A DNA stretch of 41,325 nt from a virus (lineage: Duplodnaviria > Caudoviricetes), in the IMG/VR virus record IMGVR_UViG_3300020045_003191, positions 1-41,325 of that record; one strand, written 5' to 3'. A program made the translations under genes and the position numbers. Below the pieces are notes generated by a model. That model searched no databases. It was not told where the DNA came from and saw only the letters and a program-made list of their open reading frames with translations. Within the stretch, counting starts at the first letter, position 1. The number at the start of each line of letters is the position of its first letter. This document shows, piece by piece, positions 5 through 39,032 of this stretch.

Positions 5-211
5 GTGCTGGATTTTGATAGTGGCTGGGGCAGAGTGAAAACTTACAAACTCTCTGATACCCCGTATTATGACGAGGATTGCATTCACGAGGTTTACATG
101 ATAAATAGGGAGAATAGATTAGTTCCGATTAGGTCATACCCTGTAAAGATAATACTCATATCCGACACAGGGTATTTATACATCCCCATGAGTAGATTGA
201 AGGCATTGTAA
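5..211 (+). CDS. C-terminal part of a hypothetical protein (5'-truncated); possible distant homologue of the 38105-38824 protein
   Basis: Frame open to the window edge; ends GYLYIPMSRLKAL vs DWYIPLECLEPA, and GRVKTYKLSD vs GKVVTFTKAD; same downstream context (hairpin, then GGGCTAAC). Confidence 0.55.
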   Translation: MLDFDSGWGRVKTYKLSDTPYYDEDCIHEVYMINRENRLVPIRSYPVKIILISDTGYLYIPMSRLKAL

Positions 212-212
212 A

Positions 213-238
213 CCCGCCCTCCTGTTGACGAGGGCGGG
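213..238. terminator. GC-rich hairpin between convergent units
   Basis: CCCGCCCTC-ctgttgac-GAGGGCGGG, 9-bp perfect stem just after the stop at 211. Confidence 0.6.
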
Positions 239-334
239 CTAACGGCTTGCGTTAGTTGCGGGAAACGGCGGGACGAGAAAAAGCCGTCAGTTTTGCCGAA
301 GCCCGTTTACCGTCAACTGCACGCTTTGTTGGGC
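237..334 (-). repeat. attC: attC site (98 bp)
   Basis: Minus strand GCCCAAC-AAAGC-GTGCAGTT-GAC...GC-AACTAAC-GCAAGCC-GTTAGCC gives R''/L''/L'/R' boxes with extrahelical bases. Confidence 0.88.
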
Positions 335-448
335 GGCTTCACAGATTGCAATGATACGATTGCATTCTTCAAACACTGTCTGTTTGTCACCTACGTTTGC
401 AAGCAACTTTATTGCAGATGCCCGCATAATTATTTCATCAATATCCAT
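287..448 (-). CDS. Cassette gene, 53-aa hypothetical protein (MDIDEIIMR...)
   Basis: ATG at 448 after AAGGAG; stop lies in the attC loop. Confidence 0.7.
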   Translation of the reverse strand: MDIDEIIMRASAIKLLANVGDKQTVFEECNRIIAICEAAQQSVQLTVNGLRQN

Positions 449-477
449 TTTGCTCCTTATGCCGTTGAGCGAGAGCC

Positions 478-602
478 GCCCAACGGATTGCGTTAGGCGC
501 GTGTGCGCCCGCAGAACGAACATATACGAGAACCATTGCCAAGCGTGATAGTGTAGTCTTTCGAGTGTGCCTTGCACACGTCGCCTGCACGCATTGTTAG
601 GT
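478..602 (-). repeat. attC: attC site (125 bp)
   Basis: Minus strand ACCTAAC-AATGC-GTGCAGGC-GAC-GTGTGC...GCACAC-GC-GCCTAAC-GCAATCC-GTTGGGC. Confidence 0.88.
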
Positions 603-738
603 GCGACCTGACCCACGCATAAAACGCTCGGATGTTTCCAGCTACTAAAGTTTTATGTATATCTGGTGTGTCATTCGACCACTTTAGTTTACGGATATAT
701 TCCTCTATCAATTCAAGATTTTCGTCAACTTGTGTCAT
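493..738 (-). CDS. Cassette gene, 81-aa hypothetical protein with C-terminal CxxH...CxxC
   Basis: ATG at 738 after GGAGG; C-terminal ~35 aa encoded by the attC; stop is the TAA of the L' box. Confidence 0.7.
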   Translation of the reverse strand: MTQVDENLELIEEYIRKLKWSNDTPDIHKTLVAGNIRAFYAWVRSHLTMRAGDVCKAHSKDYTITLGNGSRICSFCGRTRA

Positions 739-751
739 TGTGCCTCCTAGC

Positions 752-880
752 ATCTAACGGCTGGCGTTACCCGCAAGTGGGCGGAACGCTGATAACCTGG
801 TTTGACGGGGCCAATTCCCCGGTGGGTAAAATTTCCGAAGCGGGAGAATCCCCACTTGTCGGGTGGACGCGATGTTCGGC
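752..880 (-). repeat. attC: attC site (129 bp)
   Basis: Minus strand GCCGAAC-ATCGC-GTCCACCC-GAC-AAGTGGG...CCCACTT-GC-GGGTAAC-GCCAGCC-GTTAGAT. Confidence 0.88.
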
Positions 881-1072
881 GGCTTCAAGCATGGCAATTT
901 CTTTTTTACTGTTAAGACACTTGCGATGCAAGAATATTTGGTATGGCTTGTCGTAAGTCTCTGCCATACCGTAAAGCCTGATTACGTTCTCGCCTTCAAT
1001 TCGCCTGCCGCACTCTTCGCAATATCGGACGCGGCGAGATTTTTTTATTATCCGAACTGATAATGTTGGCAT
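767..1072 (-). CDS. First cassette gene, 101-aa zinc-finger-like protein (CEEC...HRKC)
   Basis: ATG after AAGGAGAG; CxxC/HxxC motif; stop in the L' box of the attC. Confidence 0.75.
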   Translation of the reverse strand: MPTLSVRIIKKSRRVRYCEECGRRIEGENVIRLYGMAETYDKPYQIFLHRKCLNSKKEIAMLEAAEHRVHPTSGDSPASEILPTGELAPSNQVISVPPTCG

Positions 1073-1095
1073 AGTCTCTCCTTTGCGGACGTGCC

Positions 1096-1128
1096 GCCGA
1101 ACTATGATTTATACATTAGACTTATACA
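1096..1128 (-). other. attI: attI-like recombination site
   Basis: Minus strand TGTATAA-gtctaa-TGTATAAA-TCATA-G^TTCGGC; lone R core with no hairpin partner, TAAA-N5-GTT geometry as in class 1 attI1, short direct repeats. Confidence 0.65.
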
Positions 1129-1156
1129 ATTATAATCAATTACTATCAGATGTCAA
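1129..1156 (-). promoter_or_regulatory. Sigma70-type promoter facing the cassette array (Pc equivalent)
   Basis: TTGACA (1156-1151), 16 nt, TATAAT (1134-1129). Confidence 0.8.
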
Positions 1157-1442
1157 GTACTAATTTATTGTACCCGGCATCAATACACTGCTGACGCGTG
1201 ACGCCGCGCCGCTTCGCTTTTTCCTCTTGTGCTGGCGACCACGAGACCGTATAAGACCGCTTGCGCCATTCTTCTGACACACGCTTGCGTCGTAGCCATA
1301 AATGGACGCTTCCGTCAATGTTTATGGTGTACTCCCACTTCCGCCCGCAAGCGCGGCACGGGATGGAGCGCGCGCCAGTAGATATGATCTCGGCTCCGCA
1401 CCCGACGCCTTTTGGGTCACGGCATATCGTTTTTGTTTTCAT
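1146..1442 (-). CDS. 98-aa zinc-ribbon plus ribbon-helix-helix-like putative regulator
   Basis: C...C/CRAC motif, then SYTVSWSPAQEEKAKRRGVTRQQCI; ATG overlaps the upstream stop. Confidence 0.5.
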   Translation of the reverse strand: MKTKTICRDPKGVGCGAEIISTGARSIPCRACGRKWEYTINIDGSVHLWLRRKRVSEEWRKRSYTVSWSPAQEEKAKRRGVTRQQCIDAGYNKLVLDI

Positions 1443-1834
1443 TCGCACTCGCTTTCGCCGCCGATAGCCTGCCCGCATATAAACCTTGCACCATCCCCCG
1501 GCGGTGTGATCTGGACAAAGCCATTCTCGACTACGCCGTAAATCATAACTGTGTCACCGGGACAGACATATCCGACGCGGTTGTCGCCAATTTCAGGCGC
1601 GGATCTGATGTGCCAACAGGCAGAACCGATCTCGCCAATTACCACCATTTCGCGGGGGTATGGGTCGGAGGTCGGTTTTACCGTTTGCGATTGAATTTGA
1701 GGCTGAATTTTGGCAGATTCAACGGTTTTTTCAGCGGTTGGCAAAGCCTGAATGGCGGCATTAGACACGCCGCAAGCGATTTGCGCCAGTACTAATATTG
1801 TCAACGTAATGAGTATGATTGTAAACTTATTCAT
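1439..1834 (-). CDS. Secreted/lipoprotein with SH3b-like domain
   Basis: Signal peptide with IAC-G lipobox, P/T-rich linker, WHIRSAP...VGYVCPGDTVMI...NGFVQI. Confidence 0.65.
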   Translation of the reverse strand: MNKFTIILITLTILVLAQIACGVSNAAIQALPTAEKTVESAKIQPQIQSQTVKPTSDPYPREMVVIGEIGSACWHIRSAPEIGDNRVGYVCPGDTVMIYGVVENGFVQITPPGDGARFICGQAIGGESECE

Positions 1835-2043
1835 TTCGTCTCACTCTCTGCCAACGCTTGCGCGGCGTTGGCTGTGTCTATAAGCCTGACAACGTTCCCC
1901 GTCTGTGACCTTATCGCTTTAGCGTTGGCAATCCCAAACCAGACACGCCCGGTCTTTTTATCATTGCAAATAATGAGTTGACCGTTCATTGCCAACGCTT
2001 GCAGTCCTGTCCAACTGACTGCCAACGCTTGTTCCCTTGTCAT
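1831..2043 (-). CDS. Hypothetical protein (MTREQALAVS...)
   Basis: ATG at 2043 after GGGAGAA; stop overlaps the next start. Confidence 0.5.
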   Translation of the reverse strand: MTREQALAVSWTGLQALAMNGQLIICNDKKTGRVWFGIANAKAIRSQTGNVVRLIDTANAAQALAESETK

Positions 2044-2345
2044 TTCTCCCTGCCAACGCTTCGCTTCCGTTGGCTGTAGCGTTGGCAATGTCGAAGAGGG
2101 GCTTAAGTTCGCTGTACTGTTGCTTCCGCTGTCCTTCGCTTTTTGCACCGACATACCAGACCGCCTTTCGTTCCTTGTTTCTCTCTCGCCAACTAATGCC
2201 GCGCAACATACCGTACTTGTTTCTTCGTGGCTCTAAGCGTGTTGGCTGTTCAAATATAGCGTTGGCTGTGTCTATTATCTCTATGTCGTTACTGAGTGCC
2301 AACGCTTGCGGTATCTCTGCCAACGCTTGCGCGGCGTTGGCTGTG
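1845..2345. repeat. Cluster of GCCAACGC motifs in both orientations, bounded by a 32-bp direct repeat
   Basis: TGCCAACGCTT at 1849, 1990, 2020, 2051, 2297, 2318; GCGTTGGC at 1865, 1922, 2079, 2259, 2334; 1845-1876 identical to 2314-2345. Confidence 0.9.
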
Positions 2346-2410
2346 CCACTTTCCGCCGCCGCCGCCTCCCGTACCAGCGGAGGCAGAGCGGCTAGGAAGG
2401 GTGGTTTACG
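1961..2410 (-). CDS. Basic hypothetical ORF, probably a -1 frameshift extension of the upstream membrane protein
   Basis: Frame open 2410-1961 with no upstream ATG/RBS; overlaps the end of 2392-3141 in the -1 frame. Confidence 0.45.
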   Translation of the reverse strand, partial: RKPPFLAALPPLVREAAAAESGTANAAQALAEIPQALALSNDIEIIDTANAIFEQPTRLEPRRNKYGMLRGISWRERNKERKAVWYVGAKSEGQRKQQYSELKPLFDIANATANGSEALAGRNDKGTSVGSQLDRTASVGNERSTHYLQ

Positions 2411-3141
2411 TCACGATCTGCGAGCTTCGCCTGTTCGGTATCTTGCGGAAATGCGCCAGCGGGTCGGGCTGTAAACTGTTGCGGCGGTTGACGCTTTTGT
2501 ACACGCTCTGTTGGCTTTGCCTGCTTATCGCCTCTCAAAATGCGGATGATATTTTCGACTTCATCAACACCATATTTGCTTTCAAGCGAACTGATAACAG
2601 ACAACAAATCGTTCCCGCTTTCCAGTAATTGCGTGGCTACCTGTGCGTTCAACTCTTGGTCAAGCATTTTTGACATTGCCTGTTTCTTATGGCGACGACG
2701 CGCTACGTCTGGGTCATTGTAAAAATAAAGCATCCCAACGACGGTATGTAAACCCGTCAGAATAACAACCGACCCCAAGAGGAAGTCAGCCCACGTTCCT
2801 TGAAAACCAAGAAAATCAGCCACACCTAAAAAGATAGACGTGGCGAAGGCGATACCCGCCATAACAAGAGATACCTTGCGCCAATTCTCTGTAGTGGAAT
2901 TGTACTGCCATGCAATCTCCCAAATCAGGAACGGGATAGCACACGCCGCCGACGCCGACAAAGCCTTCCACCATGAAAGGGTGAGACCATAAACCACATC
3001 GAAGGCGCGCACGTCTGCAATGATAACCATTAGATTCGCAAACACCGCCATGATAAGCGGGGCATTACTTACAACGTTTCGTTCAAACCACCCTTCCTCA
3101 TTCTGCGACTGCAATAAATCACTTACTTTTTTTTGTGTCAT
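2392..3141 (-). CDS. Four-transmembrane membrane protein with cytoplasmic helical tail
   Basis: Four hydrophobic segments; ATG at 3141 after GAGG. Confidence 0.7.
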   Translation of the reverse strand: MTQKKVSDLLQSQNEEGWFERNVVSNAPLIMAVFANLMVIIADVRAFDVVYGLTLSWWKALSASAACAIPFLIWEIAWQYNSTTENWRKVSLVMAGIAFATSIFLGVADFLGFQGTWADFLLGSVVILTGLHTVVGMLYFYNDPDVARRRHKKQAMSKMLDQELNAQVATQLLESGNDLLSVISSLESKYGVDEVENIIRILRGDKQAKPTERVQKRQPPQQFTARPAGAFPQDTEQAKLADRDVNHPS

Positions 3142-3146
3142 TTTAT

Positions 3147-3365
3147 TTACCTCTTCCTTTTCGGGATTGGAATTTCCCAATATTTATACATCGCTCTTCC
3201 GTACTTGTGTGGGTCGTAAGGCAACCATACACCATCGCGCTTTCGATAAAACATATCTGCGTTCTCGATCTTTACTATTGTTACCCAAAGAAACAATACA
3301 GCACCAACAACAACACCAACCAAAAAGAAAACAATGTAAATCACTTCAGCCCCCAGTTCTCGCAA
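3147..3365 (-). CDS. Small single-pass membrane protein
   Basis: Hydrophobic stretch VIYIVFFLVGVVVGAVLFLWV; packed in operon. Confidence 0.5.
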   Translation of the reverse strand: MRELGAEVIYIVFFLVGVVVGAVLFLWVTIVKIENADMFYRKRDGVWLPYDPHKYGRAMYKYWEIPIPKRKR

Positions 3366-3565
3366 ATGTTATTCCAGCGTTCGCTCATAGTAACTCCTCT
3401 TTCGTATGTGTCAACCGCACTATTCAACGGGGCGGGGGCGTCTACGATCTGCCAAAGGTTGTAACCGATATGCAGTATCGAACGTATAACATTGCCCGGC
3501 GCGCTTGCGCCGTCTGTCCGCTTTGCGGCTTCGTAGTAGTTGCGGGCGTGGAATGGGTCGCTCAT
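3341..3565 (-). CDS. Hypothetical protein
   Basis: ATG start, operon packing. Confidence 0.4.
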   Translation of the reverse strand: MSDPFHARNYYEAAKRTDGASAPGNVIRSILHIGYNLWQIVDAPAPLNSAVDTYERGVTMSERWNNICENWGLK

Positions 3566-3648
3566 GTTATCCTGTCAAAACGTACAGGGCGTAACCGACC
3601 ATTATACAAAAAAGAACTATTCCAAAACAATTCAAAAAGTCTTTCATG

Positions 3649-3939
3649 TTATGCCTCTTGCTTTCCGTGTATCCTGTTATGCTCTTCACGCGTAACGGGT
3701 TGCAGGTCTGATAACCGCTCCCGTCCCGTGATAAACCACTTACCAATCACAGGGACAAAATGATACCATTGCGGCTTGCCTATCCGTGCGTAGGTCAAGT
3801 GATGAATGTCGACTCTGCCAGTTACGCCGTGTTGTTTCTTGACCTTCAAGCGCAGGCGATACCAATAGGGCGAGCGCATATAGATGCGATCTTTCCAGAA
3901 CTTGTAAAGCCGGGGCGGGAGGTAGAGATAGTCAGTCAA
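3649..3939 (-). CDS. Small HNH endonuclease-like protein
   Basis: YMRSPYW...DIHHLTY...ERLSDLQPVTREEHNRIH. Confidence 0.7.
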   Translation of the reverse strand: MTDYLYLPPRLYKFWKDRIYMRSPYWYRLRLKVKKQHGVTGRVDIHHLTYARIGKPQWYHFVPVIGKWFITGRERLSDLQPVTREEHNRIHGKQEA

Positions 3940-4238
3940 TTTATGCGCCTCTCATTGATTACGTCCGCCATTTCTTCCGGCGTCTCAATGACATAAAAAT
4001 CAATCCCGCCCGCTTTACACTCTGCCTGCAACGTCAATTCATCTGATGTTAATTTCCTGTCAGACGGACGTTGACTCGGATTCTTGACCTCAACAAAAAA
4101 CATGGGAAAATCCTTGACTAAAATATCCGCGCCGTCGCCCTCTCGCAATAGAATGTATCCAATACCCGCACGTGATAACACTGCTGTGATTAGCGGCTCA
4201 TTCATGTCCCTGTGTCCTACTGCAAAACGACTTGGCAT
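3936..4238 (-). CDS. VRR-NUC / PD-(D/E)XK nuclease (resolvase-like)
   Basis: RDxNE...GADILV...FVEVKNP...KLTSDE pattern. Confidence 0.75.
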   Translation of the reverse strand: MPSRFAVGHRDMNEPLITAVLSRAGIGYILLREGDGADILVKDFPMFFVEVKNPSQRPSDRKLTSDELTLQAECKAGGIDFYVIETPEEMADVINERRIN

Positions 4239-4263
4239 TGTTTCATCCTGTCCGGGCGGTATG

Positions 4264-4569
4264 TCATGGCTTGCGCTCCAGTAACTTTGCGTATGCCTTG
4301 AGTTTCGCCGTAAACTCAAAAAACTTTTGGGCATCATCTCCACTCACCCAAATATTCGCAATTCCATTGTTTACAGCGTTCACAATAAATTGACCGTCCG
4401 CTTCAATCGCCTGCAGGCGGGCGAGGTTTCTTTTTAGGGTGACTATATCTATAATACGATTCTTCCCAAAGTCAAATAATTCCTCCCATGAGGATTCGTT
4501 TTTTGGAAAATCATCCTCTACTTCGGTTCCTGCTACAAGGTCATCTATATATTTATAAAATGCGCTCAT
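4264..4569 (-). CDS. Hypothetical protein
   Basis: ATG overlapping the upstream stop. Confidence 0.55.
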   Translation of the reverse strand: MSAFYKYIDDLVAGTEVEDDFPKNESSWEELFDFGKNRIIDIVTLKRNLARLQAIEADGQFIVNAVNNGIANIWVSGDDAQKFFEFTAKLKAYAKLLERKP

Positions 4570-4763
4570 CCTTGCCTCATTACCATCTGATTGACCTGCT
4601 CATTCGTGAGCAGGTTCATATCCACGTACCGCGGGCGGGGCTTCGTGTCCCGCCATAACTGGATAAAGCCTAACAGCCAGAACGCGATCATCAATGCGGC
4701 GAAGGGGGAGGGAGGGGTCATGTTATAACATCCTATATCTGTACTGCCTACCAACCCGCTCAC
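4566..4763 (-). CDS. Small membrane protein (start may be the internal MTPP)
   Basis: FAALMIAFWLLGFI hydrophobic helix. Confidence 0.45.
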   Translation of the reverse strand: MSGLVGSTDIGCYNMTPPSPFAALMIAFWLLGFIQLWRDTKPRPRYVDMNLLTNEQVNQMVMRQG

Positions 4764-4956
4764 GCTTCGCCTTGCCTTGTTTGACTAATTCATCCAGCCA
4801 AATTTTTACAGTAGAGCGACCTACACGCCCCGCCCAATAATCGTACAAATCGAACGTTGGATAGGGCGTCATCTTTTCCTGCTCTGTTTTCCATTTGTTA
4901 TATGCTTCGTCTAAAGTCATGGTATAAGATATACCATTAACTGTACTGCCCGTCAA
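4723..4956 (-). CDS. Small winged-helix DNA-binding protein
   Basis: GRSTVKIWLDELVKQGKAKRERVGRQYRY wHTH pattern. Confidence 0.6.
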   Translation of the reverse strand: MTGSTVNGISYTMTLDEAYNKWKTEQEKMTPYPTFDLYDYWAGRVGRSTVKIWLDELVKQGKAKRERVGRQYRYRML

Positions 4957-5162
4957 GGTCTGTAATTTACCAATAACACCCTCTGCCCGTCCACAACGTC
5001 ACTTGTGATAAAACCCTTATCCTTCAACCGTCGCAATATCGCCTCGACGTTGTAGCCGAGTTTTCTTTCGATAGCCATGCGTCCGGGGTTGTTTTTGTAC
5101 CTGTCCTGGAATTGACAGATATATTCCAGTACTTCACGCTCACGCGGTTTGAGGGGAATCAC
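4953..5162 (-). CDS. LexA-N-terminal-like winged-helix protein
   Basis: LKPREREVLEYICQF...P...IERKLG...LRRLKDKGFI. Confidence 0.65.
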   Translation of the reverse strand: MIPLKPREREVLEYICQFQDRYKNNPGRMAIERKLGYNVEAILRRLKDKGFITSDVVDGQRVLLVNYRP

Positions 5163-5313
5163 CCCACCTCTTCCCCGCCGTGCGCGGGTTCGCTGTCTGC
5201 TATCAGTTTCAGGCACACCGGACAGGTGACGGCTTCCTTCACGTTGGTGATACTCATCCAGTCCAGTGCGCCGCACATGACGGTAATCTCTCTCATGCTG
5301 TTGGTGTAGTGGG

Positions 5314-5865
5314 TCATTTCATTGCCTCTATAACGGATTTCAACGCCGCTCTCATTCTGTTTGTCAATCTGTTTTGATATTCGTATTCATCCGATAACAT
5401 AGACTCGGCTTGTCTACTGATACGGTCACAGTCATGTAAGAAAAAATCAACATCCAATTCCTGCCCGCTGTCTGCAAATTTCAACACGCCAGCGATGGAT
5501 GGGTTCCAGCCTTTCGATATGCAGTTGTCAAAATAGGCGTTTACTTTTTCCTGTTCAACTTGCAATTCCTTGACGCGCCGATTCCATTGCATCTTGGTAA
5601 ATCCATAATCAAGCAAGGTAACACGCGTGTTACCTTGCCCCCCGTGCTGGATTTCAGGCAGTATCAATTCTGTTGTCTTGCGCCGCGCCAGCAGGTATAT
5701 GCGAGTTGCAATAACCATAGTCTCATAATCATGTTGTTCTTTTGCGTAGGCTATTGCGGCGGCTGATATTGCTTCGACTGCCTGAGTCTCTTGTGGCGTG
5801 CCTGCGTTCGTCAGTTTGTTTTCGATGTAGCTGATGGGTAGGATGTTGGATTGTGTCATCTCCAT
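5314..5865 (-). CDS. Hypothetical protein
   Basis: 183-aa ORF in the operon. Confidence 0.6.
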   Translation of the reverse strand: MEMTQSNILPISYIENKLTNAGTPQETQAVEAISAAAIAYAKEQHDYETMVIATRIYLLARRKTTELILPEIQHGGQGNTRVTLLDYGFTKMQWNRRVKELQVEQEKVNAYFDNCISKGWNPSIAGVLKFADSGQELDVDFFLHDCDRISRQAESMLSDEYEYQNRLTNRMRAALKSVIEAMK

Positions 5866-6086
5866 GCCGCCAATTCTGCCTCACGGCTGTATTCTGCCAG
5901 TACGATCTCCGCTATTTCATCGTCGCTGTATTCTGTGTTCGGACTGGCTCTGTAGTAATCATCATGCTTGCCAAAGTATGATGTGATGTAGAACGGACGG
6001 TTATCGGGATAGTCACGACAAAGTTCGTATGTTATTTTTCGCCAACCATAACGGCGGGCTAGTGTTTCAATCTTGAATTTGGTCAT
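5856..6086 (-). CDS. Hypothetical protein
   Basis: ATG ORF overlapping the next start. Confidence 0.5.
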   Translation of the reverse strand: MTKFKIETLARRYGWRKITYELCRDYPDNRPFYITSYFGKHDDYYRASPNTEYSDDEIAEIVLAEYSREAELAAWR

Positions 6087-6139
6087 GGGTTATATCCATT
6101 CTGTCGGGTCTGTTGGTTCCGGCTCTGGCAGTGGGTGGG

Positions 6140-6667
6140 TCATTTTATCCTCAGTTCGGGTGCGATAAAAGGAACGCCTATAAGATTGAAAACATCCTGT
6201 TCTTCGGGCGTTTCAACAACATGATTGTTGCTCCAAATTGCGCCGCCTTCAACACGGTAATTAGACGGCATCAAGCCTCCATATTTGCGCGACGTAACAA
6301 GTCTATGACTGAAATCAGCAGAGCCAGTCCGTATCATAAACTGTATACCCCATTGTGCGGGAGGTGTGATGATAAACAAATCAAGAGTCAATCCTTCCTC
6401 AAGTTCAATCTGCTTATATTTATGCCCGCCCTTGACTGGCTTCCCATACTTAGACCAATCCACCGAATCAAGCATGTGATTTTCGCTTATCGTTCCAAAC
6501 ATGTCTGTCTCGAATTTAGGAATGGCTACAAGTTCAATATCTCCCACCTCCGGTTTTAGCCTTCTTAAACTTCCTGCTATTTCAATTCTTTGACAAAAAG
6601 GCGCAAGCCTTTCAATAACGCTCTTGGCAATATTCCACGCTTCTGCGTGATAGAGTTTGCGTTTCAT
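6140..6667 (-). CDS. Minimal family X DNA polymerase / nucleotidyltransferase (palm plus C-terminal domain)
   Basis: AGSLRR...GDIELV, third acidic residue in LDLF, RTGSADF, EEQDVFNLIGVPFIAPELR. Confidence 0.85.
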   Translation of the reverse strand: MKRKLYHAEAWNIAKSVIERLAPFCQRIEIAGSLRRLKPEVGDIELVAIPKFETDMFGTISENHMLDSVDWSKYGKPVKGGHKYKQIELEEGLTLDLFIITPPAQWGIQFMIRTGSADFSHRLVTSRKYGGLMPSNYRVEGGAIWSNNHVVETPEEQDVFNLIGVPFIAPELRIK

Positions 6668-7389: not shown

Positions 7390-7745
7390 CTTATGTTCCT
7401 TTCTCTAGATAGTCTTTCAAATATACTTTGATGAGTTAATCCGTATTCCTTTGACAATTTATAAACCGCCTCTCCATTAGAATATTCGCCGTACCGCTTT
7501 GCATCACTTTCGCACCGCGCCGCCATTGCAGGGCGTCCCGCTTTTGCGAAGTCCTCCGCCAGTACGTGCCACTCAAAAGCATAGCGCACCATGTTTTCGA
7601 TATTGCTTGTGTCAACGAGTTTGTAATACCGTTCCATCAATTCATCACGATAGGGTAAGCCGTCAACGGGTGTAAGTCCTACGTGCCGCCGTAACCACTC
7701 GCGGCGTTGTTCCTTTGCTTGCATAATTTCAATGTCTGTATTCAT
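7386..7745 (-). CDS. Hypothetical protein
   Basis: Overlapping start/stop with both neighbours. Confidence 0.55.
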   Translation of the reverse strand: MNTDIEIMQAKEQRREWLRRHVGLTPVDGLPYRDELMERYYKLVDTSNIENMVRYAFEWHVLAEDFAKAGRPAMAARCESDAKRYGEYSNGEAVYKLSKEYGLTHQSIFERLSRERNIR

Positions 7746-8338: not shown

Positions 8339-8340
8339 GA

Positions 8341-30272: not shown

Positions 30273-30284
30273 AAAAGCGGAGAG

Positions 30285-30783: not shown

Positions 30784-32865
30784 ATGCCCGCTCGCGTACA
30801 GATCGTAGTCGAAACAAAAGACGTGTCATCTGGAATTTTGCGCGGCATTACCGGGCAGTTCGGGCAGTTGGGTTCTGTTGTAGAGGAGATGACCGCCAAG
30901 AACGTTAATTGGGGGAATGTCGCACAACAGGCAACCACGCTTGTTATCGAAGGCTTGAAACAATCCTACGCCGCCGCACAGGAATACAGTCAGAGCGTGC
31001 GTGATTTGAGTCTGATAACACAGACCGGGGCGGAGCAAACGTCCCGCTTTTTGCAGGTGTTGGATGATTACCAATTAACCGCCGATGACGCGACCGCCGC
31101 AAGCAAGGCACTCAAAGAAAATGGATTAGTCCCAACGATTGACACGCTCGCGGATTTGGCAGACCAATATCAATCCATAAAAGACCCCGCTGAAAAATTG
31201 GTATTTATTCAGGAGAATTTGGGCAGGGGCGGAGCAAAGTGGATTAACGTACTCAATCAACAAAGTGACGCACTTAGAAATCAAGCGGCAAATGTAGACC
31301 AGAATCTTATATTGACCGATGAAATGATAAGAAAAATGGAGCTTGCCCGCTTGGCTGGCGATGCTTGGGCGGATACGTGGCAGGGTATTCAAGTACAGGT
31401 GGGGGCGGCAATGGGGAGCATTGTAGCCGATATGGAAGATACAAAAACGGCGGCGGCAGAAGAGAGGCGTGAATTAGAGGATACAGCTAAAAGTTTAGGA
31501 ATGACTGTTGATGGATTTTTAGATTATTCTCTCGCGCTGGATGCGTCCGGGCGGGCGCAAAATAATCTAATTGCACAACAGGAAAAAACAGATTGGGCGG
31601 CGCAAGAAAAAGGAATAACAGATACAGCGGACGCCGCTAAAGACCTAGCCGTAAGCATTCAAGAGATTGATTATAAAGCCCTTATACAGGGAATCCAAAG
31701 CACACAAAGCGAGATGGATAACTACGCCAAAAAGAATCAAGAGATTGCAGAGAGTGAGCAGGTATCCATTGCTAAAAAAGCGGAACTGCTCGCGTCGATT
31801 GAAAAGCTAAAATCACAGGGCTATCAGGAAGCCGGGCAGACCATTCAGGACGTACGCGAAAATATAAAAGCGGTTGATGCTGAATTGGAAAATAACAAAA
31901 AGACACTGGCAGAGAATGAGGCGGCTCATAAAAAATGGGCGGCGCAAACCATCTTTGCCTTTGCACAAGCCCGCGCCGCCGCCGATGGAAGTATCACAGA
32001 GGGAGAGGGTAAGGTACTGATTGAGATGGGGCAACAGTTGGGATTGTTTGACGAACAAACTGCGAAGGCAATGGAAGGCGTCAACAAAGCGTTTGAAAAT
32101 GTGGACACAGAGAATGCGGAGGAGTCTATAACGGCGGTTAAGTCTGCTTTGGAGGCGTTGACCGGGCAACCGTGGACGGTGTTTGTACAGGGTGTCTATT
32201 CGGTGACGGGAAGCACAAGCGTGGGAACGAACTGTTTTATAGAGAATACAAAAATCCTTATGCGGGATTATGTGTTCAAAAATATTCAGGATGTAGAACC
32301 GGGTGATTATGTCATATCGTATGAAGTGGAAACGGGTATGTTGAAAGAGGCAAAGGTAGCCGAAAAGATTACCCACGACAAAAGCGAAGTCAAGGACGGC
32401 TATTTACTTATTAATTACCACCTGGGCGTTACGCGTGAACATCCATTAAAGACGCCCGACGGGTGGAAGTATGCCGGTGATTTGAACGCGGGCGATACAT
32501 TGATTACACCGGAAGGGACTATAAAAGTATTCTCCATTCTTGAAATAAAGGATAATGTCACGGTATACAATTTGCATATTGATGACGAAGATCACAACTT
32601 CTTTGCAAACGGGATACTGGTACATAATGTAATTCCAAAAGCGGCACAAGGCGGGCAGGTGTACGCAGGCAAGCCCACGCTTGTAGGAGAGGCGGGGCAG
32701 GAAGTATTTGTACCACCTTCCAACGGGCGTATATTGAGCAACGCTGAAAGCCTTCATGCCATGACCATCGCAAACGGCGGAGGCGGAGGCAGTAACTATT
32801 TTTATGGTAATGTCACTCTCCAAATTGGAGATGATGACGCAAGCGGATTAATGAGCGTGAGATAA
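30784..32865 (+). CDS. Tape measure protein containing a Hint domain
   Basis: Ala/Gln-rich helical body; C-terminal A.GG.V...LVGEAGQEVFVP motif. Confidence 0.85.
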   Translation: MPARVQIVVETKDVSSGILRGITGQFGQLGSVVEEMTAKNVNWGNVAQQATTLVIEGLKQSYAAAQEYSQSVRDLSLITQTGAEQTSRFLQVLDDYQLTADDATAASKALKENGLVPTIDTLADLADQYQSIKDPAEKLVFIQENLGRGGAKWINVLNQQSDALRNQAANVDQNLILTDEMIRKMELARLAGDAWADTWQGIQVQVGAAMGSIVADMEDTKTAAAEERRELEDTAKSLGMTVDGFLDYSLALDASGRAQNNLIAQQEKTDWAAQEKGITDTADAAKDLAVSIQEIDYKALIQGIQSTQSEMDNYAKKNQEIAESEQVSIAKKAELLASIEKLKSQGYQEAGQTIQDVRENIKAVDAELENNKKTLAENEAAHKKWAAQTIFAFAQARAAADGSITEGEGKVLIEMGQQLGLFDEQTAKAMEGVNKAFENVDTENAEESITAVKSALEALTGQPWTVFVQGVYSVTGSTSVGTNCFIENTKILMRDYVFKNIQDVEPGDYVISYEVETGMLKEAKVAEKITHDKSEVKDGYLLINYHLGVTREHPLKTPDGWKYAGDLNAGDTLITPEGTIKVFSILEIKDNVTVYNLHIDDEDHNFFANGILVHNVIPKAAQGGQVYAGKPTLVGEAGQEVFVPPSNGRILSNAESLHAMTIANGGGGGSNYFYGNVTLQIGDDDASGLMSVR
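32233..32628 (+). other. 132-aa Hint (intein-like) domain with no endonuclease; +1 residue is Val
   Basis: CFIENTKI...IQDVEPGD...VTREHPL...VYNL...HNFFANGILVHN/V. Confidence 0.9.
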
Positions 32866-32866
32866 C

Positions 32867-34894
32867 ATGATACTTCATCCATATTCCATTGAAGATCGTT
32901 ATGGTACGGTCACGGTAATAGGTAGCACCGATTCGACGCTAAATTGGGAGTCAACTGATTACAATGCCAAGTTTCCACGCGCCGCCGCAAATCTGCAAAT
33001 GGAAACCAACGCGTCGTATATCAAGCGTGCCGGGGCTGTTCCTGTCTATTCAGGCAAGGATTACAAACCGCATACGATGGTACTGGAAATTATTTGTAAA
33101 CACGATACACAAACGCTATTCAGCACCCTTAACCAGCTATTCGACACAAAGGACGAAACGCCGCGCCAGTTAATTTGCATTGACGTTGAAAACAGCGACA
33201 AGCAGTATTATATTTATGTCACCCCCACGAAGGTTTTAGGCGGGCATGATGGGACAATGGTCACGGTCACACTGGCAATAGATGACCCTGTATGGCAGAG
33301 TGTTTCCTATAACTCGCAGACGTTCGGGATTGCTACTGCTACCGATTCCACAAGCGTGACAGTAAACGGGAATGATGAAAGCTATCCTATATTTGAAGTG
33401 ACACCCACTTCCCAAACGTCAACCGATTACCGCTATTCAGTTTACTTGCAGGTACTTCCCACTTCTACCGACCCGTGGAATAACCGCCGTATCAACATCA
33501 CGGGCGATACGTCAACCACATGGGATACCGCCGCGCTTGTTACGGCTGTAAAGATGCAAGCGGACATGGATGATTTTGCCGTGTTGCAGGATGGGGTTTT
33601 TGTTGACTTTTGGCTATCAGGCGCAAACACAACTGATACAAAGGTTAACGTGGTTGCAGACATGCCGCCCGTTTATAACATGACGTTGGGTACTGCTTTG
33701 GCGTCTACCGATACCATCACGACCGTATCCTTGACGGTGAATAACGCCAACAAAAAAGCAATCAAGCAGTTGCCTAACGAGGGCAGAATTATCATTGACA
33801 CATCTTTGGGCAGTACGGACTCAGAGGAGTTTGTTTACACGGCTAAAACGGTTACGACCACAGAGCTATCTTTTACCATAAACTCGCGCGCTGTACGCGG
33901 GACAGTTGCCCTTAATCATTCAGTTGGTCACAACGTCCGATTCCTCCCTTATGACTTTACGCTTGTATACGGTAAAGCCTCCGCAACCGCGCCCGAAATA
34001 GATGATACTTATAAACCGATTTCATCCCTTGCGGATAATAACTCGACCTTTACCTATACACAATTTTATAACGTAGCCGCCACGCGTGCGGGTATATGGA
34101 AGCCCGAAGTCACGCGCGTATCAAATCCGCAATTGACAAACTCAGGCTATTACACATCCACAAACGACGCGGGAGACACAGACCCCGCCTCCGCGATGGG
34201 CGTGCGTGCGGAGAGCTACGAATCAAACGGCGTTTGGAATGCAGACACAATTACCATACTTTGGAAAAACTATTTCCCTGAAATTGTATCCAGTGTTTCG
34301 GCGTCTGGTTATCAAATCCAAACGGTAGCAGGCAGACCGTCCTTTAAGTTGCAGTCAAGCCCAGATGACCAGACATGGGCGACGCTCGCCACAGTAGCCG
34401 CGCAATCAGCAACGGATTATTCGACCTGGACGGCGTGGACTATTTCATCCTCTGATTTGACCATCCCCACGGGCACAACTTATTTACGCTTTATACAGAA
34501 CGGGTCAATCACAGGCTCTACCGATAATTACGCCCGCGTAAGTGTTGAAGCGGTGACGGTTGCAATTACCAATAATCCCCATGTAATGATACGTGCGGAG
34601 GCGGCAAACGTACAGGCGAATTTTAAGATTGTCAATTCCACAACGGGCGATTATTTTATAATCAATTTTCCAATGGCAACCAGTGAGACACTTTATATTG
34701 ACACAAATCCAGACTTTCCAACCGTGACCTATAAGGGCAAAGTGGTTAATGGGTGTATAAAATTATCCACTGTTCGTTCCAAGTGGCTGGTACTTAGACC
34801 GGGTACAAATACAATAGGATTTGAAACCCAGAAAAGCGATGTAGACCCAATGAATATCGTTATAAAGTTTAAAGACAGGGCGAACTTTTTCTAA
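32867..34894 (+). CDS. Distal tail/baseplate protein with inserted domains
   Basis: Follows TMP; DPVW, VNGNDESYP, WLVLRPGTNTI Dit-like motifs. Confidence 0.7.
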   Translation: MILHPYSIEDRYGTVTVIGSTDSTLNWESTDYNAKFPRAAANLQMETNASYIKRAGAVPVYSGKDYKPHTMVLEIICKHDTQTLFSTLNQLFDTKDETPRQLICIDVENSDKQYYIYVTPTKVLGGHDGTMVTVTLAIDDPVWQSVSYNSQTFGIATATDSTSVTVNGNDESYPIFEVTPTSQTSTDYRYSVYLQVLPTSTDPWNNRRINITGDTSTTWDTAALVTAVKMQADMDDFAVLQDGVFVDFWLSGANTTDTKVNVVADMPPVYNMTLGTALASTDTITTVSLTVNNANKKAIKQLPNEGRIIIDTSLGSTDSEEFVYTAKTVTTTELSFTINSRAVRGTVALNHSVGHNVRFLPYDFTLVYGKASATAPEIDDTYKPISSLADNNSTFTYTQFYNVAATRAGIWKPEVTRVSNPQLTNSGYYTSTNDAGDTDPASAMGVRAESYESNGVWNADTITILWKNYFPEIVSSVSASGYQIQTVAGRPSFKLQSSPDDQTWATLATVAAQSATDYSTWTAWTISSSDLTIPTGTTYLRFIQNGSITGSTDNYARVSVEAVTVAITNNPHVMIRAEAANVQANFKIVNSTTGDYFIINFPMATSETLYIDTNPDFPTVTYKGKVVNGCIKLSTVRSKWLVLRPGTNTIGFETQKSDVDPMNIVIKFKDRANFF

Positions 34895-35952
34895 TGTGGC
34901 TCTCCACCTCCTCATTCCCGAAGGATCGGGTGCGCGTTTTTGATAGAAGCGGTATCCCTATCGCAGAGTTTAACGCGGCTGTTGAACGCTCATGGGTATT
35001 GAACGACGAAGGGCGGGCGCAATTTACCTACCCGTCACGCAAAACGCAGATCGTTAATCCGAAGGTACTAAACTTTGGGAACTGGCTATTGATTGAAAAC
35101 AACCTGTTACCTGATTGGGTGGGAGTGATTGACACGCCGCAGGAATGGGATACCCGCTCTGTTACCGTATCAGCCTATTCACCGGAACACGTTTTCAGTT
35201 TTCGGCGCGGTCCCGTGGAAGAGACCATAAAAGGTTCTGCGGGTTCGATATTTGGCAAGCTGATAAATAAAGTCAATCAGGCAGAGGCGACCATTTTGCA
35301 GGTTGGGTCATTGTGGACGGGCGGCGAACAGCGCGAAGAGACTCTTAACCCCATCCTGCTTAGTGAGAGTTTGCGGAGAATACGGGAACGAAGTCTGGAA
35401 GAATACGAGTTTATCCCGCAGATTGACAAAAACGAACGCTTGCGGGTGATTGGTAATTGGTCGCAAAAAATAGGACGTGATACATCCATACTGTTACATG
35501 AAGGCAAGGGCGGCGGGAATGTCGAGGCGGTGGGGCGTATCATGGTTGTAGACGGCACGATTGTAAATGACCTGCTGGGGTATGGCGAAGGCGAAACGTG
35601 GAAGTCGAAGCCGATGTTTACCGCCAAAGATAAACAGAGTATCGGCAAATACGGGCTTAGGCAGGGGTCGGAGGAGTTTGAGAATTCGACTCAAGCCTCT
35701 ATACAAAGTAATACCATAAAAAAGTTGCAGGAATATGAAAACATCCCCAACACATTCAGGCTAAACGCTTTGAATTTGGGTGCTACGTGGAAGTATATTC
35801 GCATGGGTAATACCTTGACGCTACGCTTTCAAAACATCGGCTTTGGTAATACGGGTATCGGATATGAGACGGTAGTTAGAATCGTTGGCATGGTGTATGA
35901 GCCGAACAGTAAAAACAAAGTAGAGTTGACAGTATCAGAGGTGACAGTATGA
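34894..35952 (+). CDS. Minor tail / baseplate hub protein
   Basis: Position; SIGKYGLR, IRMGNTL..RIVG motifs. Confidence 0.65.
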   Translation: MWLSTSSFPKDRVRVFDRSGIPIAEFNAAVERSWVLNDEGRAQFTYPSRKTQIVNPKVLNFGNWLLIENNLLPDWVGVIDTPQEWDTRSVTVSAYSPEHVFSFRRGPVEETIKGSAGSIFGKLINKVNQAEATILQVGSLWTGGEQREETLNPILLSESLRRIRERSLEEYEFIPQIDKNERLRVIGNWSQKIGRDTSILLHEGKGGGNVEAVGRIMVVDGTIVNDLLGYGEGETWKSKPMFTAKDKQSIGKYGLRQGSEEFENSTQASIQSNTIKKLQEYENIPNTFRLNALNLGATWKYIRMGNTLTLRFQNIGFGNTGIGYETVVRIVGMVYEPNSKNKVELTVSEVTV

Positions 35953-37079
35953 GCAGTTTTGTAAGGCAACCATTAGAGCAAAAATTAAATAGACAGAATA
36001 TGATTTCCCGTATCAAGCGGCTGGAATCCAAGACGGGCGCGCGCGCGAGTGCGAGCGTGAACGACTTGGGCGAGATAGCGGACAAGATCAGCGCGGCTAA
36101 ATTCTACGCGGTGGATGTGGATAAGAACGTAGTCCGAATGATTATGTCGGGTGAATCTCTTATAGGCTTGATTGGCGTTGATGCTCATTTGGCGGGTATG
36201 GCGGATGATGGGACGGTTCAATTTTATGTAGACGCCGCGACGGGAAAAATATATTGGGGAAGCGGTGCGGGTGTGTTGGATTCAGATGGTATGTCTATAA
36301 ATATAGATAATTATGATGACACTACAAATCCAAACGCAATACGATTTTTATCGAGTGGGACAGAAGCGTCAAGAATAGTAGCATGGCAAAACACCGGGAC
36401 GCTTAATAATTATGCCGCTACAACCGTTAATCATATAACTGGTCTGTCGAGTAACTATCGTATAGATGTGTACGGCTCAAGTACAGATGGTGCGGCAATT
36501 AACATGAATGCTCAGGGAGTATATCAACATCTCTTGAAGATCGACGCCTCCCTGGCTGGTATAAAAATATCAAGAATTACTCTCAACGGAGGTCCCATTG
36601 CAAAAATTGGCGGCATTATATTCGACCACTACGCCAACGTCGGGAACGTTGGGACGGGTGAGGATGATTTATATTCTGACACTCTAGACGCTGATACCTT
36701 TGTGGCGGACGGTGACAAGGTAACCGCCTCCTACATGGTCACGATGGTAGCGCACGCAACAGCCACGCGTCGAATTAGGATATACTTGGGCGGTACATCC
36801 ATATATGACACAGCCGCTATCACCATTGCGGGCGGGCTTGGGTATTGTGGTATTAATGTCGAGATGATTCGGGAAAGTTCTACAGTCGTTCGATGTTCGG
36901 TCACAGCGAGCGGATATAGAATGTCCGCAACTGTACCCGCGCTTTATACAAGAGTTACGGGTTTGACGCTGACTAACACAAACATACTAAAGATTACAGG
37001 CGAGGCGGCAGGGGTGGGCGCGGCAACAGATGACCTTATCGCACGCACTGGAACGGTGTACTGGTATCCGGCGGCATGA
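35949..37079 (+). CDS. Tail fibre / receptor-binding protein
   Basis: N-terminal coil RIKRLES, then Gly/Thr-rich beta body; last tail gene. Confidence 0.6.
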   Translation: MSSFVRQPLEQKLNRQNMISRIKRLESKTGARASASVNDLGEIADKISAAKFYAVDVDKNVVRMIMSGESLIGLIGVDAHLAGMADDGTVQFYVDAATGKIYWGSGAGVLDSDGMSINIDNYDDTTNPNAIRFLSSGTEASRIVAWQNTGTLNNYAATTVNHITGLSSNYRIDVYGSSTDGAAINMNAQGVYQHLLKIDASLAGIKISRITLNGGPIAKIGGIIFDHYANVGNVGTGEDDLYSDTLDADTFVADGDKVTASYMVTMVAHATATRRIRIYLGGTSIYDTAAITIAGGLGYCGINVEMIRESSTVVRCSVTASGYRMSATVPALYTRVTGLTLTNTNILKITGEAAGVGAATDDLIARTGTVYWYPAA

Positions 37080-37089
37080 TAGGAGTGGT

Positions 37090-38112
37090 ATGAACTTCAC
37101 AGACGGAAACGTAATCGGCGCGGATGTATCTCTGTATCAGGATGATAACGGGACACTCCAACGCATAGACTTTACCAAGATGGTTGGACAGGGTGCGTCC
37201 TTCGTCATTGTGCGCGCCGGGCAGAACGCTTGGGTTGACCCTGACTTTGCCTACAATTGGGCGAACGCAAAAGCGGCGGGATTACCGCGCGGTTCGTATT
37301 GGTTTTATGACTCACGCTATCCCCCGCTCGCACAGGCGGAGCTATTTGCGGGACTGTTCGCAACCGATAAGCCTGAATTGGAATTGTGGCTTGACTTGGA
37401 AGAGGCATACGGCGGGAGTTATGCGGGGTGGAAGAACTGGAAAATATTCTTGACCCGATTGCATGAGTTATTGCCATCCGTAAAGATTGGAATTTATACC
37501 GGGTACTATTACTTTACTGGCAAGATACCCGCGTCAGAGTATCCATTCTTTTCTGCATTTGGTTTATGGATCGCCTGGTACACGTCAAATCCCGCTAATG
37601 TGTCAATCCCGGTCCCGTGGACAAACTGCCTGTATTGGCAATGGGGTACGCCCTCTTGGGGCTTGGCTTGGGGGTGCGAGAGTATTGAAATTGATATGAA
37701 TAAATTCAACGGCACCGCGGCGGAGTTTTCCGCACGTTACGGAATCGGAGGAGGTACAGACCCCATGCCCACAGACAAATATTATCTCGTTACGGTTGAC
37801 GCCCTGAATGTACGGGACGCCTTGACTGGTGGCAATCCGATATTCACAATACAACTCAATGACGTTGTACACTCCGTTGAAAATGGCACGGATGGAAACA
37901 TCGTCCGCCACAAGATAGATAAGTTGTATAAAGCTGGCGTATTGACACCCTTCGACGTCACATCCCCAACGGGTCAATATTGGGCGGCTGAAAAGAACAC
38001 GTCAACCGGTAATGTGTTTATGGTGGAAACGAGCGACCCGAATCCGCCGCAAAAGGTATTGACACACACAATCAAAGTATTCGATGACGGGAGCATTGTT
38101 ATAGATGGCTAG
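37090..38112 (+). CDS. Endolysin, GH25 muramidase with SH3-like C-terminal region
   Basis: GADVSLYQ, WLDLEE, IYT, LWIAWY, WQW, IDMN; LNVR SH3b motif; AGGAG RBS. Confidence 0.92.
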   Translation: MNFTDGNVIGADVSLYQDDNGTLQRIDFTKMVGQGASFVIVRAGQNAWVDPDFAYNWANAKAAGLPRGSYWFYDSRYPPLAQAELFAGLFATDKPELELWLDLEEAYGGSYAGWKNWKIFLTRLHELLPSVKIGIYTGYYYFTGKIPASEYPFFSAFGLWIAWYTSNPANVSIPVPWTNCLYWQWGTPSWGLAWGCESIEIDMNKFNGTAAEFSARYGIGGGTDPMPTDKYYLVTVDALNVRDALTGGNPIFTIQLNDVVHSVENGTDGNIVRHKIDKLYKAGVLTPFDVTSPTGQYWAAEKNTSTGNVFMVETSDPNPPQKVLTHTIKVFDDGSIVIDG

Positions 38113-38824
38113 TCTACTGCGTACAGTAAAAGTGTTCAACGATGGGAGTATTGAGGTAGAAGCGGCGCAAGTACCTCCCCCCTCTTACCGCGTCCGCAAG
38201 TGGGGCGATCCCATCATGGCGAAGGAATATAACTGCGACGTGAACGTGATAAAAACAACGAACTTTCAGCGCGTCTGTATGTATGTCCCTCTCACGAGTA
38301 CATGGTCGGTTGTGGAAAATCATGTTGTACTGGGGCGCGCTGAGATGAATGCGCTGATAAACATACAAACAAAGTGGGGGAAACACACCTCTGACACGTT
38401 CGATCAAATGATGAATTGGCTGGTGTTCGATGGTGAGGCGACCCGTCCATATTGGGGCGGCAAATGGAAAACGGCTACGCTGTTCAAAACGGGTACGATG
38501 TTATGGGGCGGGCAATTGGTACAAATCGGCGAGCGTAAAACATTCCTGACGGCTACGCCGGGGAATACCAAAAAGAGACAGATTGAGATGGGCAAGGTTG
38601 TCACGTTTACAAAGGCGGATTTAGCGAAGCTGATAGCCGGGACCATCACCCCGCAATCACATCCCCACCTGATACCGCAATGTAGTGCGGCGGGTGGTAA
38701 CAACGTATTCAATCCAACGCCGCGCGGCAATACAATGTTCTCGCCTATCTGGGGCGGTGAGTGGGCAAAGGTGAATATGGCAAGGGATTGGTATATCCCG
38801 CTGGAATGTCTGGAGCCTGCATAA
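38105..38824 (+). CDS. Lysis-module accessory protein sharing a terminal peptide with the endolysin
   Basis: N-terminal TVKVFNDGSIEV matches endolysin C-terminal TIKVFDDGSIVI. Confidence 0.65.
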   Translation: MASLLRTVKVFNDGSIEVEAAQVPPPSYRVRKWGDPIMAKEYNCDVNVIKTTNFQRVCMYVPLTSTWSVVENHVVLGRAEMNALINIQTKWGKHTSDTFDQMMNWLVFDGEATRPYWGGKWKTATLFKTGTMLWGGQLVQIGERKTFLTATPGNTKKRQIEMGKVVTFTKADLAKLIAGTITPQSHPHLIPQCSAAGGNNVFNPTPRGNTMFSPIWGGEWAKVNMARDWYIPLECLEPA

Positions 38825-38831
38825 TATAAAA

Positions 38832-38861
38832 CTCCCACTGTCCATTTTGCAACAGCGGGAG
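38832..38861. terminator. Hairpin between the late operon and the convergent cassette array
   Basis: AAAA-CTCCCACTGT...ACAGCGGGAG; the U-tract reads on the minus strand. Confidence 0.55.
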
Positions 38862-38903
38862 GAGACGGCGTTACCTAATCCGTATACCGTTTATTATTTG
38901 CCG

Positions 38904-39032
38904 GGCTAACGGCTGGCGTTAGTGGCAGTGGGGCGGGCTGGGAAAATGCCAGAGAGCCGCACCAACTACCAGACGCGAACCAACTAAATCAGCGGGGAGA
39001 ATCCCCACTGTCCACTGCACGCGGTGTTAGCC
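38904..39032 (-). repeat. attC: attC site (129 bp)
   Basis: Minus strand GGCTAAC-ACCGC-GTGCAGTG-GAC-AGTGGGG...CCCCACT-GC-CACTAAC-GCCAGCC-GTTAGCC. Confidence 0.88.

What the first reader, a model, noticed from the sequence alone, without database searches (positions are those of the whole stretch)
5..38910. The whole phage lies between two equivalent attC crossover points: possible integration via integron recombination
Seen: both arrays end identically on the plus strand: a rightward gene ending YIPxxxL, a hairpin, then CGGGCTAAC-GGCT(T/G)GCGTTAG (235-255 and 38902-38922). The two genes look remotely homologous (GRVKTYKLSD/GKVVTFTKAD; YIPMSRL/YIPLECL) with no obvious DNA-level match. The interval between the crossover Gs at 243 and 38910 (about 38.7 kb) contains a full phage gene set with a repressor switch but no integrase. 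Inference: recombination between these two G^TT sites would release a circular phage with three cassettes, leaving a second related element with its own lysis-end gene and five or more cassettes. This could be a phage-phage cointegrate or tandem prophages formed by IntI, meaning lysogeny through integron sites. The exact shared sequence at the junctions is only about 13 bp, short for a k-mer assembly chimera, but misassembly or a single phage with two arrays is not excluded.
Basis: inference. Interest (0 to 1): 0.8.

Follow-up and report, generated by a model that had tools for sequence, protein, structure and literature searches.

The report
Integron phage with foreign lysis end
A phage that likely infects Anaerolineales bacteria carries a host-type integron docking site and eight cassette recombination sites but no integrase, and one site runs into what is likely the lysis-region end of another phage, which would point to integron-made exchange between phages rather than insertion of the whole phage into a host integron.

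Summary
The anatomy is real: eight minus-strand attC sites (three left, five right), a full phage gene set between G243 and G38910, and no tyrosine or serine recombinase found. New here: a promoter and an exact Anaerolineales-type attI core (G1102) head the left cassettes. The pairing of 243 with 38910 is not supported. The shared 13 bp is ordinary (5 of 28 site pairs in the window reach it). Both flanks look like phage cargo, not a host array. In a low-depth independent run, the phage end and the 38910 site each have other partners, which look like the two ends of one extra cassette, so the right array is probably this phage's own. Best reading: one circular phage with one attI-headed array, opened by assembly inside the array, where attC 243 runs into another phage's lysis end, likely joined by host IntI. 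An assembly chimera and a true two-phage cointegrate remain open. Lysogeny in a host integron has no support here. Phage attC arrays are published (Qi 2023), and this scan found Anaerolineales-type phage arrays before on other DNA.

The parts
2..211 (+). 3' end (69 codons) of a 173-195 aa phage protein family that in relatives lies in the lysis region; likely from a second phage
   Evidence: 11 homologs, 64-77% identical; gene neighbours in L344-L348, G003, G020
213..238 (.). Terminator-like hairpin abutting the left array end
   Evidence: fold of 205-260, z -4.5 and -5.3
237..334 (-). attC of cassette L3; crossover G at 243
243..483 (-). Cassette L3 (53-aa ORF reading into its attC)
484..757 (-). 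Cassette L2 with attC 478-602
758..1101 (-). Cassette L1 (101-aa ORF reading through attC 752-880)
1100..1115 (-). attI core, crossover G at 1102; matches the attI core beside intI in three Anaerolineales genomes
   Evidence: the only exact match in the window
1129..1156 (-). 12/12 sigma-70 consensus promoter directly upstream of attI (predicted cassette promoter)
1146..11266 (-). Leftward operon: Cro/C1-type HTH (11266-11054), endonuclease VII, replication initiator, helicase loader, small genes, SH3-type gene; reads towards attI
11273..11343 (.). Two divergent consensus promoters
12143..38824 (+). Rightward operon: RecT, SSB, methyltransferase, exonuclease, terminase, portal, protease-capsid, tail genes, GH25 lysin (37030-38112), terminal gene
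38105..38824 (+). 239-aa lysin-adjacent protein of a family with 175 representatives and no Pfam/PHROG name
38832..38861 (.). Terminator-like hairpin
38858..38909 (.). Decayed attC-like stretch plus a 19-bp relic between a GTT/AAC triplet (38889-38891) and G38910; run X1 diverges from the window right after this triplet
   Evidence: sequence; the reading as a relic is inference
38904..39032 (-). attC of cassette R1; crossover G at 38910
   Evidence: z -3.0
38910..39320 (-). Cassette R1 (100-aa ORF)
   Evidence: 38902-39278 found 100% identical in X1
39321..40496 (-). Cassettes R2, R3, R4 (crossover Gs 39321, 39647, 40076); R2 ORF matches phrog_24508
40497..41325 (-). Cassette R5, phage-type PAPS-reductase-like gene cut by the contig end about 20 codons short of its start; attC 40491-40615
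   Evidence: phrog_424; 46% homolog is a cassette in circular phage G049

Best explanation
The contig is likely one nearly complete, probably circular Anaerolineales phage with a single attI-headed cassette array that the assembly likely opened in the middle, and at attC 243 the array runs into what is likely another phage's lysis end, most likely joined there by the host's integron integrase. Shown: promoter, host-type attI, eight attC-bounded cassettes in the usual orientation, no recombinase gene found. Inferred: host IntI acts in trans, inserting cassettes at G1102 and shuffling them at attC sites; the order would be attI, L1-L3, a captured lysis-end piece in reverse orientation, a gap, R5-R1, phage end; the captured piece would be what is left of an attC x attC crossover between two co-infecting phages. 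On this reading 38910 is the phage's native array end, not a cointegration junction.
For: attI core identical at 15 of 15 specified bases to host cores. Only one attI for eight same-strand attC. One gap explains both contig ends: about 105-125 codons are missing on the left and about 20 on the right; CheckV 99%. Contigs of these phages break in arrays: 11 of 37 have an attC within 1 kb of an end against about 4.6 expected, and G024 is opened inside its one array. Arrays converging on the lysis end are common in relatives (G003, G018, G020, G026, G032). In X1 the phage end and attC 38910 lie at like depth (3.2, 2.3) with other partners; the two new ends carry matching cassette start and end motifs, which own ends do in 110 of 141 cassettes and mismatched pairs in 3% (for this end motif 9 of 10 against 13 of 141). 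The left gene's family lies in lysis regions and was followed by no attC in 5 of 5 close loci.
Against: No read or contig closes the circle or links the two X1 ends; the X1 pieces are short and at 2-3x depth, and the motif argument is only about tenfold. None of 30 relative records (12 only partly fetched) shows two lysis ends or a lysis-end piece inside an array, so the arrangement has no precedent among them. A join at G^TT is expected whether it is biological or an assembly path through a shared cassette, so its position does not discriminate. No intI is in the window and no host is linked directly. Relatives with two separate attI-headed arrays exist (G017, G049), so a second attI beyond 41325 is possible.
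Confidence: 0.5

Rival explanations
1. Assembly chimera: the left 242 bp (perhaps with some left cassettes) come from a second phage in the same sample that shares a cassette or core sequence, and the assembler switched genomes there.
For: The foreign part is only 242 bp and at a contig end. Arrays are breakpoints. Cassette R1 occurs 100% identical with another neighbour in X1. The protein sequences checked were each seen on this one contig only (6 of 6 found).
Against: The 13-bp match is too short to cause a switch by itself, so a whole shared cassette (241-344 bp) or core is needed. If the phage's own continuation existed at its depth it should have been preferred (inference). No near-identical copy of any window cassette was found in the relatives fetched.
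Confidence: 0.22
2. One reading: a true cointegrate in which the phage circle was inserted by IntI attC x attC recombination into the array of a whole second phage or prophage, with partner sites 243 and 38910 or 243 and a site further right.
For: Both flanks are phage-type; two lysis-type ends on one contig; all sites are co-oriented; phage attC sites recombine with IntI1 in E. coli assays, and a Vibrio prophage is bounded by two attC sites (Qi 2023, PMC9892861).
Against: No special identity between 243 and 38910. X1 shows neither predicted junction at 38910. Two independent assembly breaks close to the junctions are needed. An 80-kb dimer could not be packaged whole (inference). Excision needs both attC folded at once and fell with length up to 3 kb for some site pairs (Loot 2017, PMC5371416, passages); 38.7 kb was not tested there.
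Confidence: 0.2
3. One phage that natively has two arrays, each with its own attI, and a second lysis-type gene between them; no foreign join at 243.
For: Two attI-headed arrays in 2 circular relatives, G017 and G049. The two terminal proteins may be distant paralogs.
Against: In G017 and G049 the two arrays face opposite ways, and each of the 13 records with a GH25 hit had only one.
Confidence: 0.06
4. Lysogeny through a host integron: the phage is a giant cassette in the host's chromosomal array.
For: 7 of 9 circular relatives have neither a tyrosine nor a serine recombinase, so how they persist is open; their sites are host-type.
Against: Flank cassettes are small and read through attC like phage cassettes (6 of 6; phage 28 of 40; host 2 of 72). 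No terminase in 158 host attC loci, 40 of them 5 kb or longer with a full attC. No attC in 7 stretches around MAG phage genes, and 2 of the 4 with a terminase hit have a tyrosine recombinase beside it. No CI-type repressor found.
Confidence: 0.02

Closest known systems
Phage-borne CALINs and integrons (Qi, Rajabal, Ghaly, Tetu, Gillings 2023, PMC9892861; parts 1-4 of 7 read, supplement searched by term)
   Same: attC-bounded small cassettes in a phage without intI; a terminator-like element with two inverted GTT motifs at the array border (TJE1); a CALIN with its own attI (Shewanella prophage M16-3).
   Different: Anaerolineales-type sites (no Chloroflexota term in that paper's supplement); cassette genes read through attC; an array end joined to a second phage's lysis-region gene is not described in the parts read.
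Vibrio anguillarum prophage Va_90-11-286_p16 (Qi 2023; Castillo 2019, PMC6893619, passages)
   Same: A roughly 41-kb phage whose ends coincide with two attC sites; IntI-driven excision was suggested.
   Different: It lies in the host chromosomal integron, has a 68-bp perfect direct repeat and carries its own intI. Here the repeat is a generic 13 bp, there is no intI and both flanks are phage-type.
Sedentary chromosomal integrons of Anaerolineales (loci L370-L373)
   Same: Same attC family and the same 16-base attI core.
   Different: Host cassettes are larger (median 820 bp) and stop before attC; host intI is divergent from the array, whereas the phage-borne intI in relatives is co-oriented with attI at its 3' end.
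IMEX elements such as CTXphi that integrate with host XerCD (recalled, no call)
   Same: The idea of an integrase-less phage using a host recombinase and a folded single-stranded site.
   Different: No evidence here of insertion in a host chromosome; different enzyme and site.

Membership tests
CALIN / integrase-less integron array | Two or more co-oriented attC with R'', L'', L', R' boxes and a folding bottom strand | tested here: met
   8 sites, about -19 to -30 kcal/mol; z against shuffles -3.0 for 38903-39033 but only -1.5 for 236-336
CALIN / integrase-less integron array | Cassette start complementary to its own R'' end | tested here: met
   5 of 7 complete cassettes exact over 9 bases; L2 and R2 differ
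CALIN / integrase-less integron array | No intI nearby | tested here: met
   No PF00589 match in six frames; the contig is open at both ends
Complete integron | intI gene | tested here: not met
   present in 6 of 50 relative records
Complete integron | attI and cassette promoter | tested here: met
   (sequence match only)
Complete integron | IntI-catalysed recombination at these sites | not testable with these tools
   Indirect only: partners differ in X1 at GTT/AAC triplets
Prophage integrated at integron sites (p16-like) | Both flanks are host chromosome or host array | tested here: not met
Prophage integrated at integron sites (p16-like) | Distinctive direct repeat or hybrid sites marking the two ends | tested here: not met
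   13 bp is at background level
Prophage integrated at integron sites (p16-like) | Excised circle or empty site seen in reads | tested here: inconclusive
   Only run X1 was served; neither junction seen in its low-depth contigs
Temperate phage | Integrase or partition system and CI-type repressor | tested here: not met
   small ORFs under 60 aa and the missing segment were not scanned by family
Phage-phage cointegrate | Both flanks continue into one second phage genome | not testable with these tools
   The window is the whole contig

The most novel reading that the evidence does not exclude
Host integron integrase fuses whole genomes of co-infecting Anaerolineales phages at their attC arrays, and this contig is such a fusion or its resolved product; integrase-less phages of this group could use the same reaction to lodge in a resident prophage's array and persist without an integrase of their own.
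Probability: 0.3. Interest if true: 0.8.

Novelty: new variant of a known kind. Interest (0 to 1): 0.45.

Why it matters
If the join at 243 is real, integron sites on phages do more than swap single cassettes: they would let a host enzyme splice unrelated phage genomes at a fixed place with no homology, a defined route to phage mosaicism. The relatives add a testable pattern: many Anaerolineales-type phages carry host-type attI and arrays, 6 of 50 records carry their own intI, and 7 of 9 circular records have no integrase found. One unclosed contig cannot establish fusion or lysogeny, so the score is moderate.

Tried and rejected
Rfam: no match. tRNA: none. Terminal repeat of the contig: none of 10-199 bp. 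Close relatives of the terminal gene in viral contigs with the single protein: none; 4 loci with the alignment, none beside an attC. Left family in viral contigs: one weak hit not examined further and none. INPHARED phages: no match to the terminal protein. ESM Atlas: nothing usable for either family. AlphaFold: right protein confident (pLDDT 94.7), left family poor (54.9); Foldseek in viral structures gave no hit at E<=0.001 for either, so folds did not settle homology. Motifs from the two X1 loose ends: 0 matches in viral contigs. GH25 across 401 Anaerolineales genomes was no prophage marker (189 of 401). Capsid protein: 3 of 401; terminase family: 8 of 401. The left end was never laid on X1, and parts of 21400-41325 without cover in X1 say nothing. 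Reverse-oriented cassettes, reported for other phages in this scan, were rejected here: extra bases and attI position give the usual orientation. A hairpin after an internal attC in G049 proved to be an ordinary cassette leader, not a buried array end. Literature: no paper with integron + phage genome + attC + Chloroflex; searches listed no title or abstract start on IntI-made phage-phage fusion or lysogeny beyond Qi 2023; subscription journals are not covered.
Full report
Scope. The window is a whole contig of 41,325 bp, a linear virus record with CheckV 99% and no terminal repeat.

Anatomy. Eight attC sites lie on the minus strand with crossover Gs at 243, 484, 758 and 38910, 39321, 39647, 40076, 40497. 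Cassette starts match their own ends. The left cassettes are headed by a 12/12 sigma-70 consensus promoter at 1156-1129 and an attI core at 1115-1100, crossover G1102, which matches the core beside intI in three Anaerolineales genomes and occurs exactly once in the window. Among the 80 genome loci listed for the attC half-site, every locus with two or more matches is Anaerolineae, so the host is likely an Anaerolineales bacterium (inference). Between the arrays is a full siphovirus-like gene set. No tyrosine recombinase, resolvase or serine recombinase was found. The 'switch' is two divergent promoters and one 70-aa HTH leading the replication operon, not a shown lysogeny switch.

Are 243 and 38910 a special pair? 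No. They share 13 bp across the crossover, but so do 5 of 28 pairs in the window, and 37% of random pairs among 302 attC sites share 13 or more; the downstream 9-mer is the second commonest (25 of 302). A cassette-like start plus a hairpin after the last attC is the usual array end in relatives (G017, G024, G032, G016). Pairing 243 with any right-hand attC gives a circle of 38,667 to 40,254 bp.

What are the flanks? The right array is phage cargo. Cassette ORFs run more than 25 nt into attC in 6 of 6 window cassettes scored, 28 of 40 in phage records and 2 of 72 in host loci; median lengths are 368, 484 and 820 bp. Its PAPS-reductase-like gene has a 46% homolog as a cassette in circular phage G049. 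The left gene belongs to a family of 173-195 aa found in phage lysis regions: behind a lysin-like ORF in L345 and L346 (read by eye), behind GH25 in G003 and G020, and followed by no attC in 5 of 5 close loci. The right gene's family (175 representatives) also follows a lysin in L340-L343. The families may be remote homologs (27.5%, E=0.00065), but an HMM test did not beat controls and folds did not help. So the contig holds two lysis-type ends, which none of 30 relative records showed (12 fetched only in part; each of 13 with a GH25 hit had one).

Independent sample. X1 holds pieces 99-100% identical to 37975-38246, 38644-38891, 38902-39032 and 39024-39278 at depth 2-4. The phage-end piece leaves the window right after the GTT triplet at 38889-38891, into a motif typical of a cassette border. 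The attC 38910 piece continues, on the minus strand, into a different cassette start with a ribosome-binding site and ATG, not into the left gene. The two new ends carry complementary start and end motifs. Own ends match exactly in 110 of 141 cassettes, mismatched pairs in 3%; for this end motif 9 of 10 against a background of 13 of 141. The simplest reading is one extra cassette between R1 and the phage end, so that the right array is this phage's own.

Relatives. The half-site scan gave 140 viral loci. Of 50 records chosen for attC content and length, 17 have a tyrosine recombinase match, 6 pass the integron-integrase cut-off (two confirmed) and 3 of the 49 searched have a serine recombinase. 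Seven of 9 records with terminal repeats have neither kind. In the intI carriers the gene is co-oriented with the array and attI lies at its 3' end. Arrays often sit at contig ends (11 of 37 within 1 kb, about 4.6 expected), and G024 is opened inside its single array. Two attI-headed arrays occur in G017 and G049, facing opposite ways. In hosts, 8 of 401 Anaerolineales genomes hit a terminase family; 7 stretches fetched from 6 genomes had no attC, and 2 of the 4 with a terminase hit have a tyrosine recombinase beside it. None of 158 host attC loci had a terminase.

Mechanism. Shown: promoter, attI, cassettes, no integrase, two lysis-type ends, variable partners at GTT/AAC triplets in X1. Inferred: host IntI acts in trans; the genome is a circle opened at one gap holding about 105-125 codons of the left gene and about 20 of the PAPS gene; the left piece came from another phage by an attC x attC crossover and a later second event. 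I give this 0.5, an assembly chimera 0.22, a whole two-phage cointegrate 0.2, two native arrays 0.06, lysogeny in a host integron 0.02. The position of the join at G^TT cannot separate biology from an assembly path, since a second phage's native end also begins there.

Comparison. Qi et al. 2023 (PMC9892861; parts 1-4 of 7 read; supplement searched by term) report 17 CALINs and 4 integrase-bearing cases in 10,705 phages, show that phage attC sites recombine with IntI1, and describe prophage Va_90-11-286_p16 bounded by two attC sites with a 68-bp repeat; Castillo et al. 2019 (PMC6893619, passages) induced and sequenced it. Loot et al. 2017 (PMC5371416, passages) state that excision needs simultaneous folding of both sites and fell with length up to 3 kb for some pairs. 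IMEX elements are recalled, not checked. Earlier notes of this scan describe Anaerolineales-type phage arrays on other DNA. The array is thus a new variant of a known kind; the foreign lysis end is the unusual part and is unproven.

Noticed in passing
G005, G012, G027, G034, G041, G045 (e.g. L334:13317-14378): Six phage records carry a full integron integrase co-oriented with the array, with attI at the 3' end of intI, unlike the divergent host layout; G034 is circular and also has a second tyrosine integrase.
   Followed up: partly
G002, G006, G017, G043, G047, G048, G049: Seven of nine attC-bearing records with terminal repeats have neither a tyrosine nor a serine recombinase match; how they persist is open.
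   Followed up: partly
window 767-1072, 38989-39291, 39367-40050, 40086-40475, 40390-41325 (minus): Cassette ORFs read through their own attC; R3 continues in frame into the R2 ORF (227 aa) and R5 runs 311 aa past its attC.
   Followed up: partly
window 38858-38910: Two inverted GTT/AAC motifs 22 bp apart with decayed attC-like halves beside the terminator, reminiscent of the inverted GTT pair at the TJE1 CALIN border in Qi 2023.
   Followed up: partly
window 18787-20961: Portal protein fused to a 2'-5' RNA ligase-like (2H) domain.
   Followed up: no
window 30784-32865: Probable tape-measure protein with a C-terminal HINT domain (PF07591).
   Followed up: no
window 22488-23201: GIY-YIG/NUMOD3 homing endonuclease directly before the protease-capsid gene.
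   Followed up: no
window 27777-29227: Methyltransferase-like and GT2 glycosyltransferase genes among the tail genes.
   Followed up: no
window 1845-2350: Several imperfect repeats of a GCCAACGC...GCGTTGGC palindrome, including a 32-nt exact pair at 1845 and 2314; unexplained.
   Followed up: no
L013:13337-17495 (G003): Between two attC clusters lies an operon with a B12-binding radical SAM gene and a weak type IV CRISPR Csf3 match below the cut-off.
   Followed up: partly
window 38105-38824: The lysin-adjacent protein folds confidently (pLDDT 94.7) with no viral structural match; family members also occur as C-terminal domains of 850-1400 aa proteins.
   Followed up: partly
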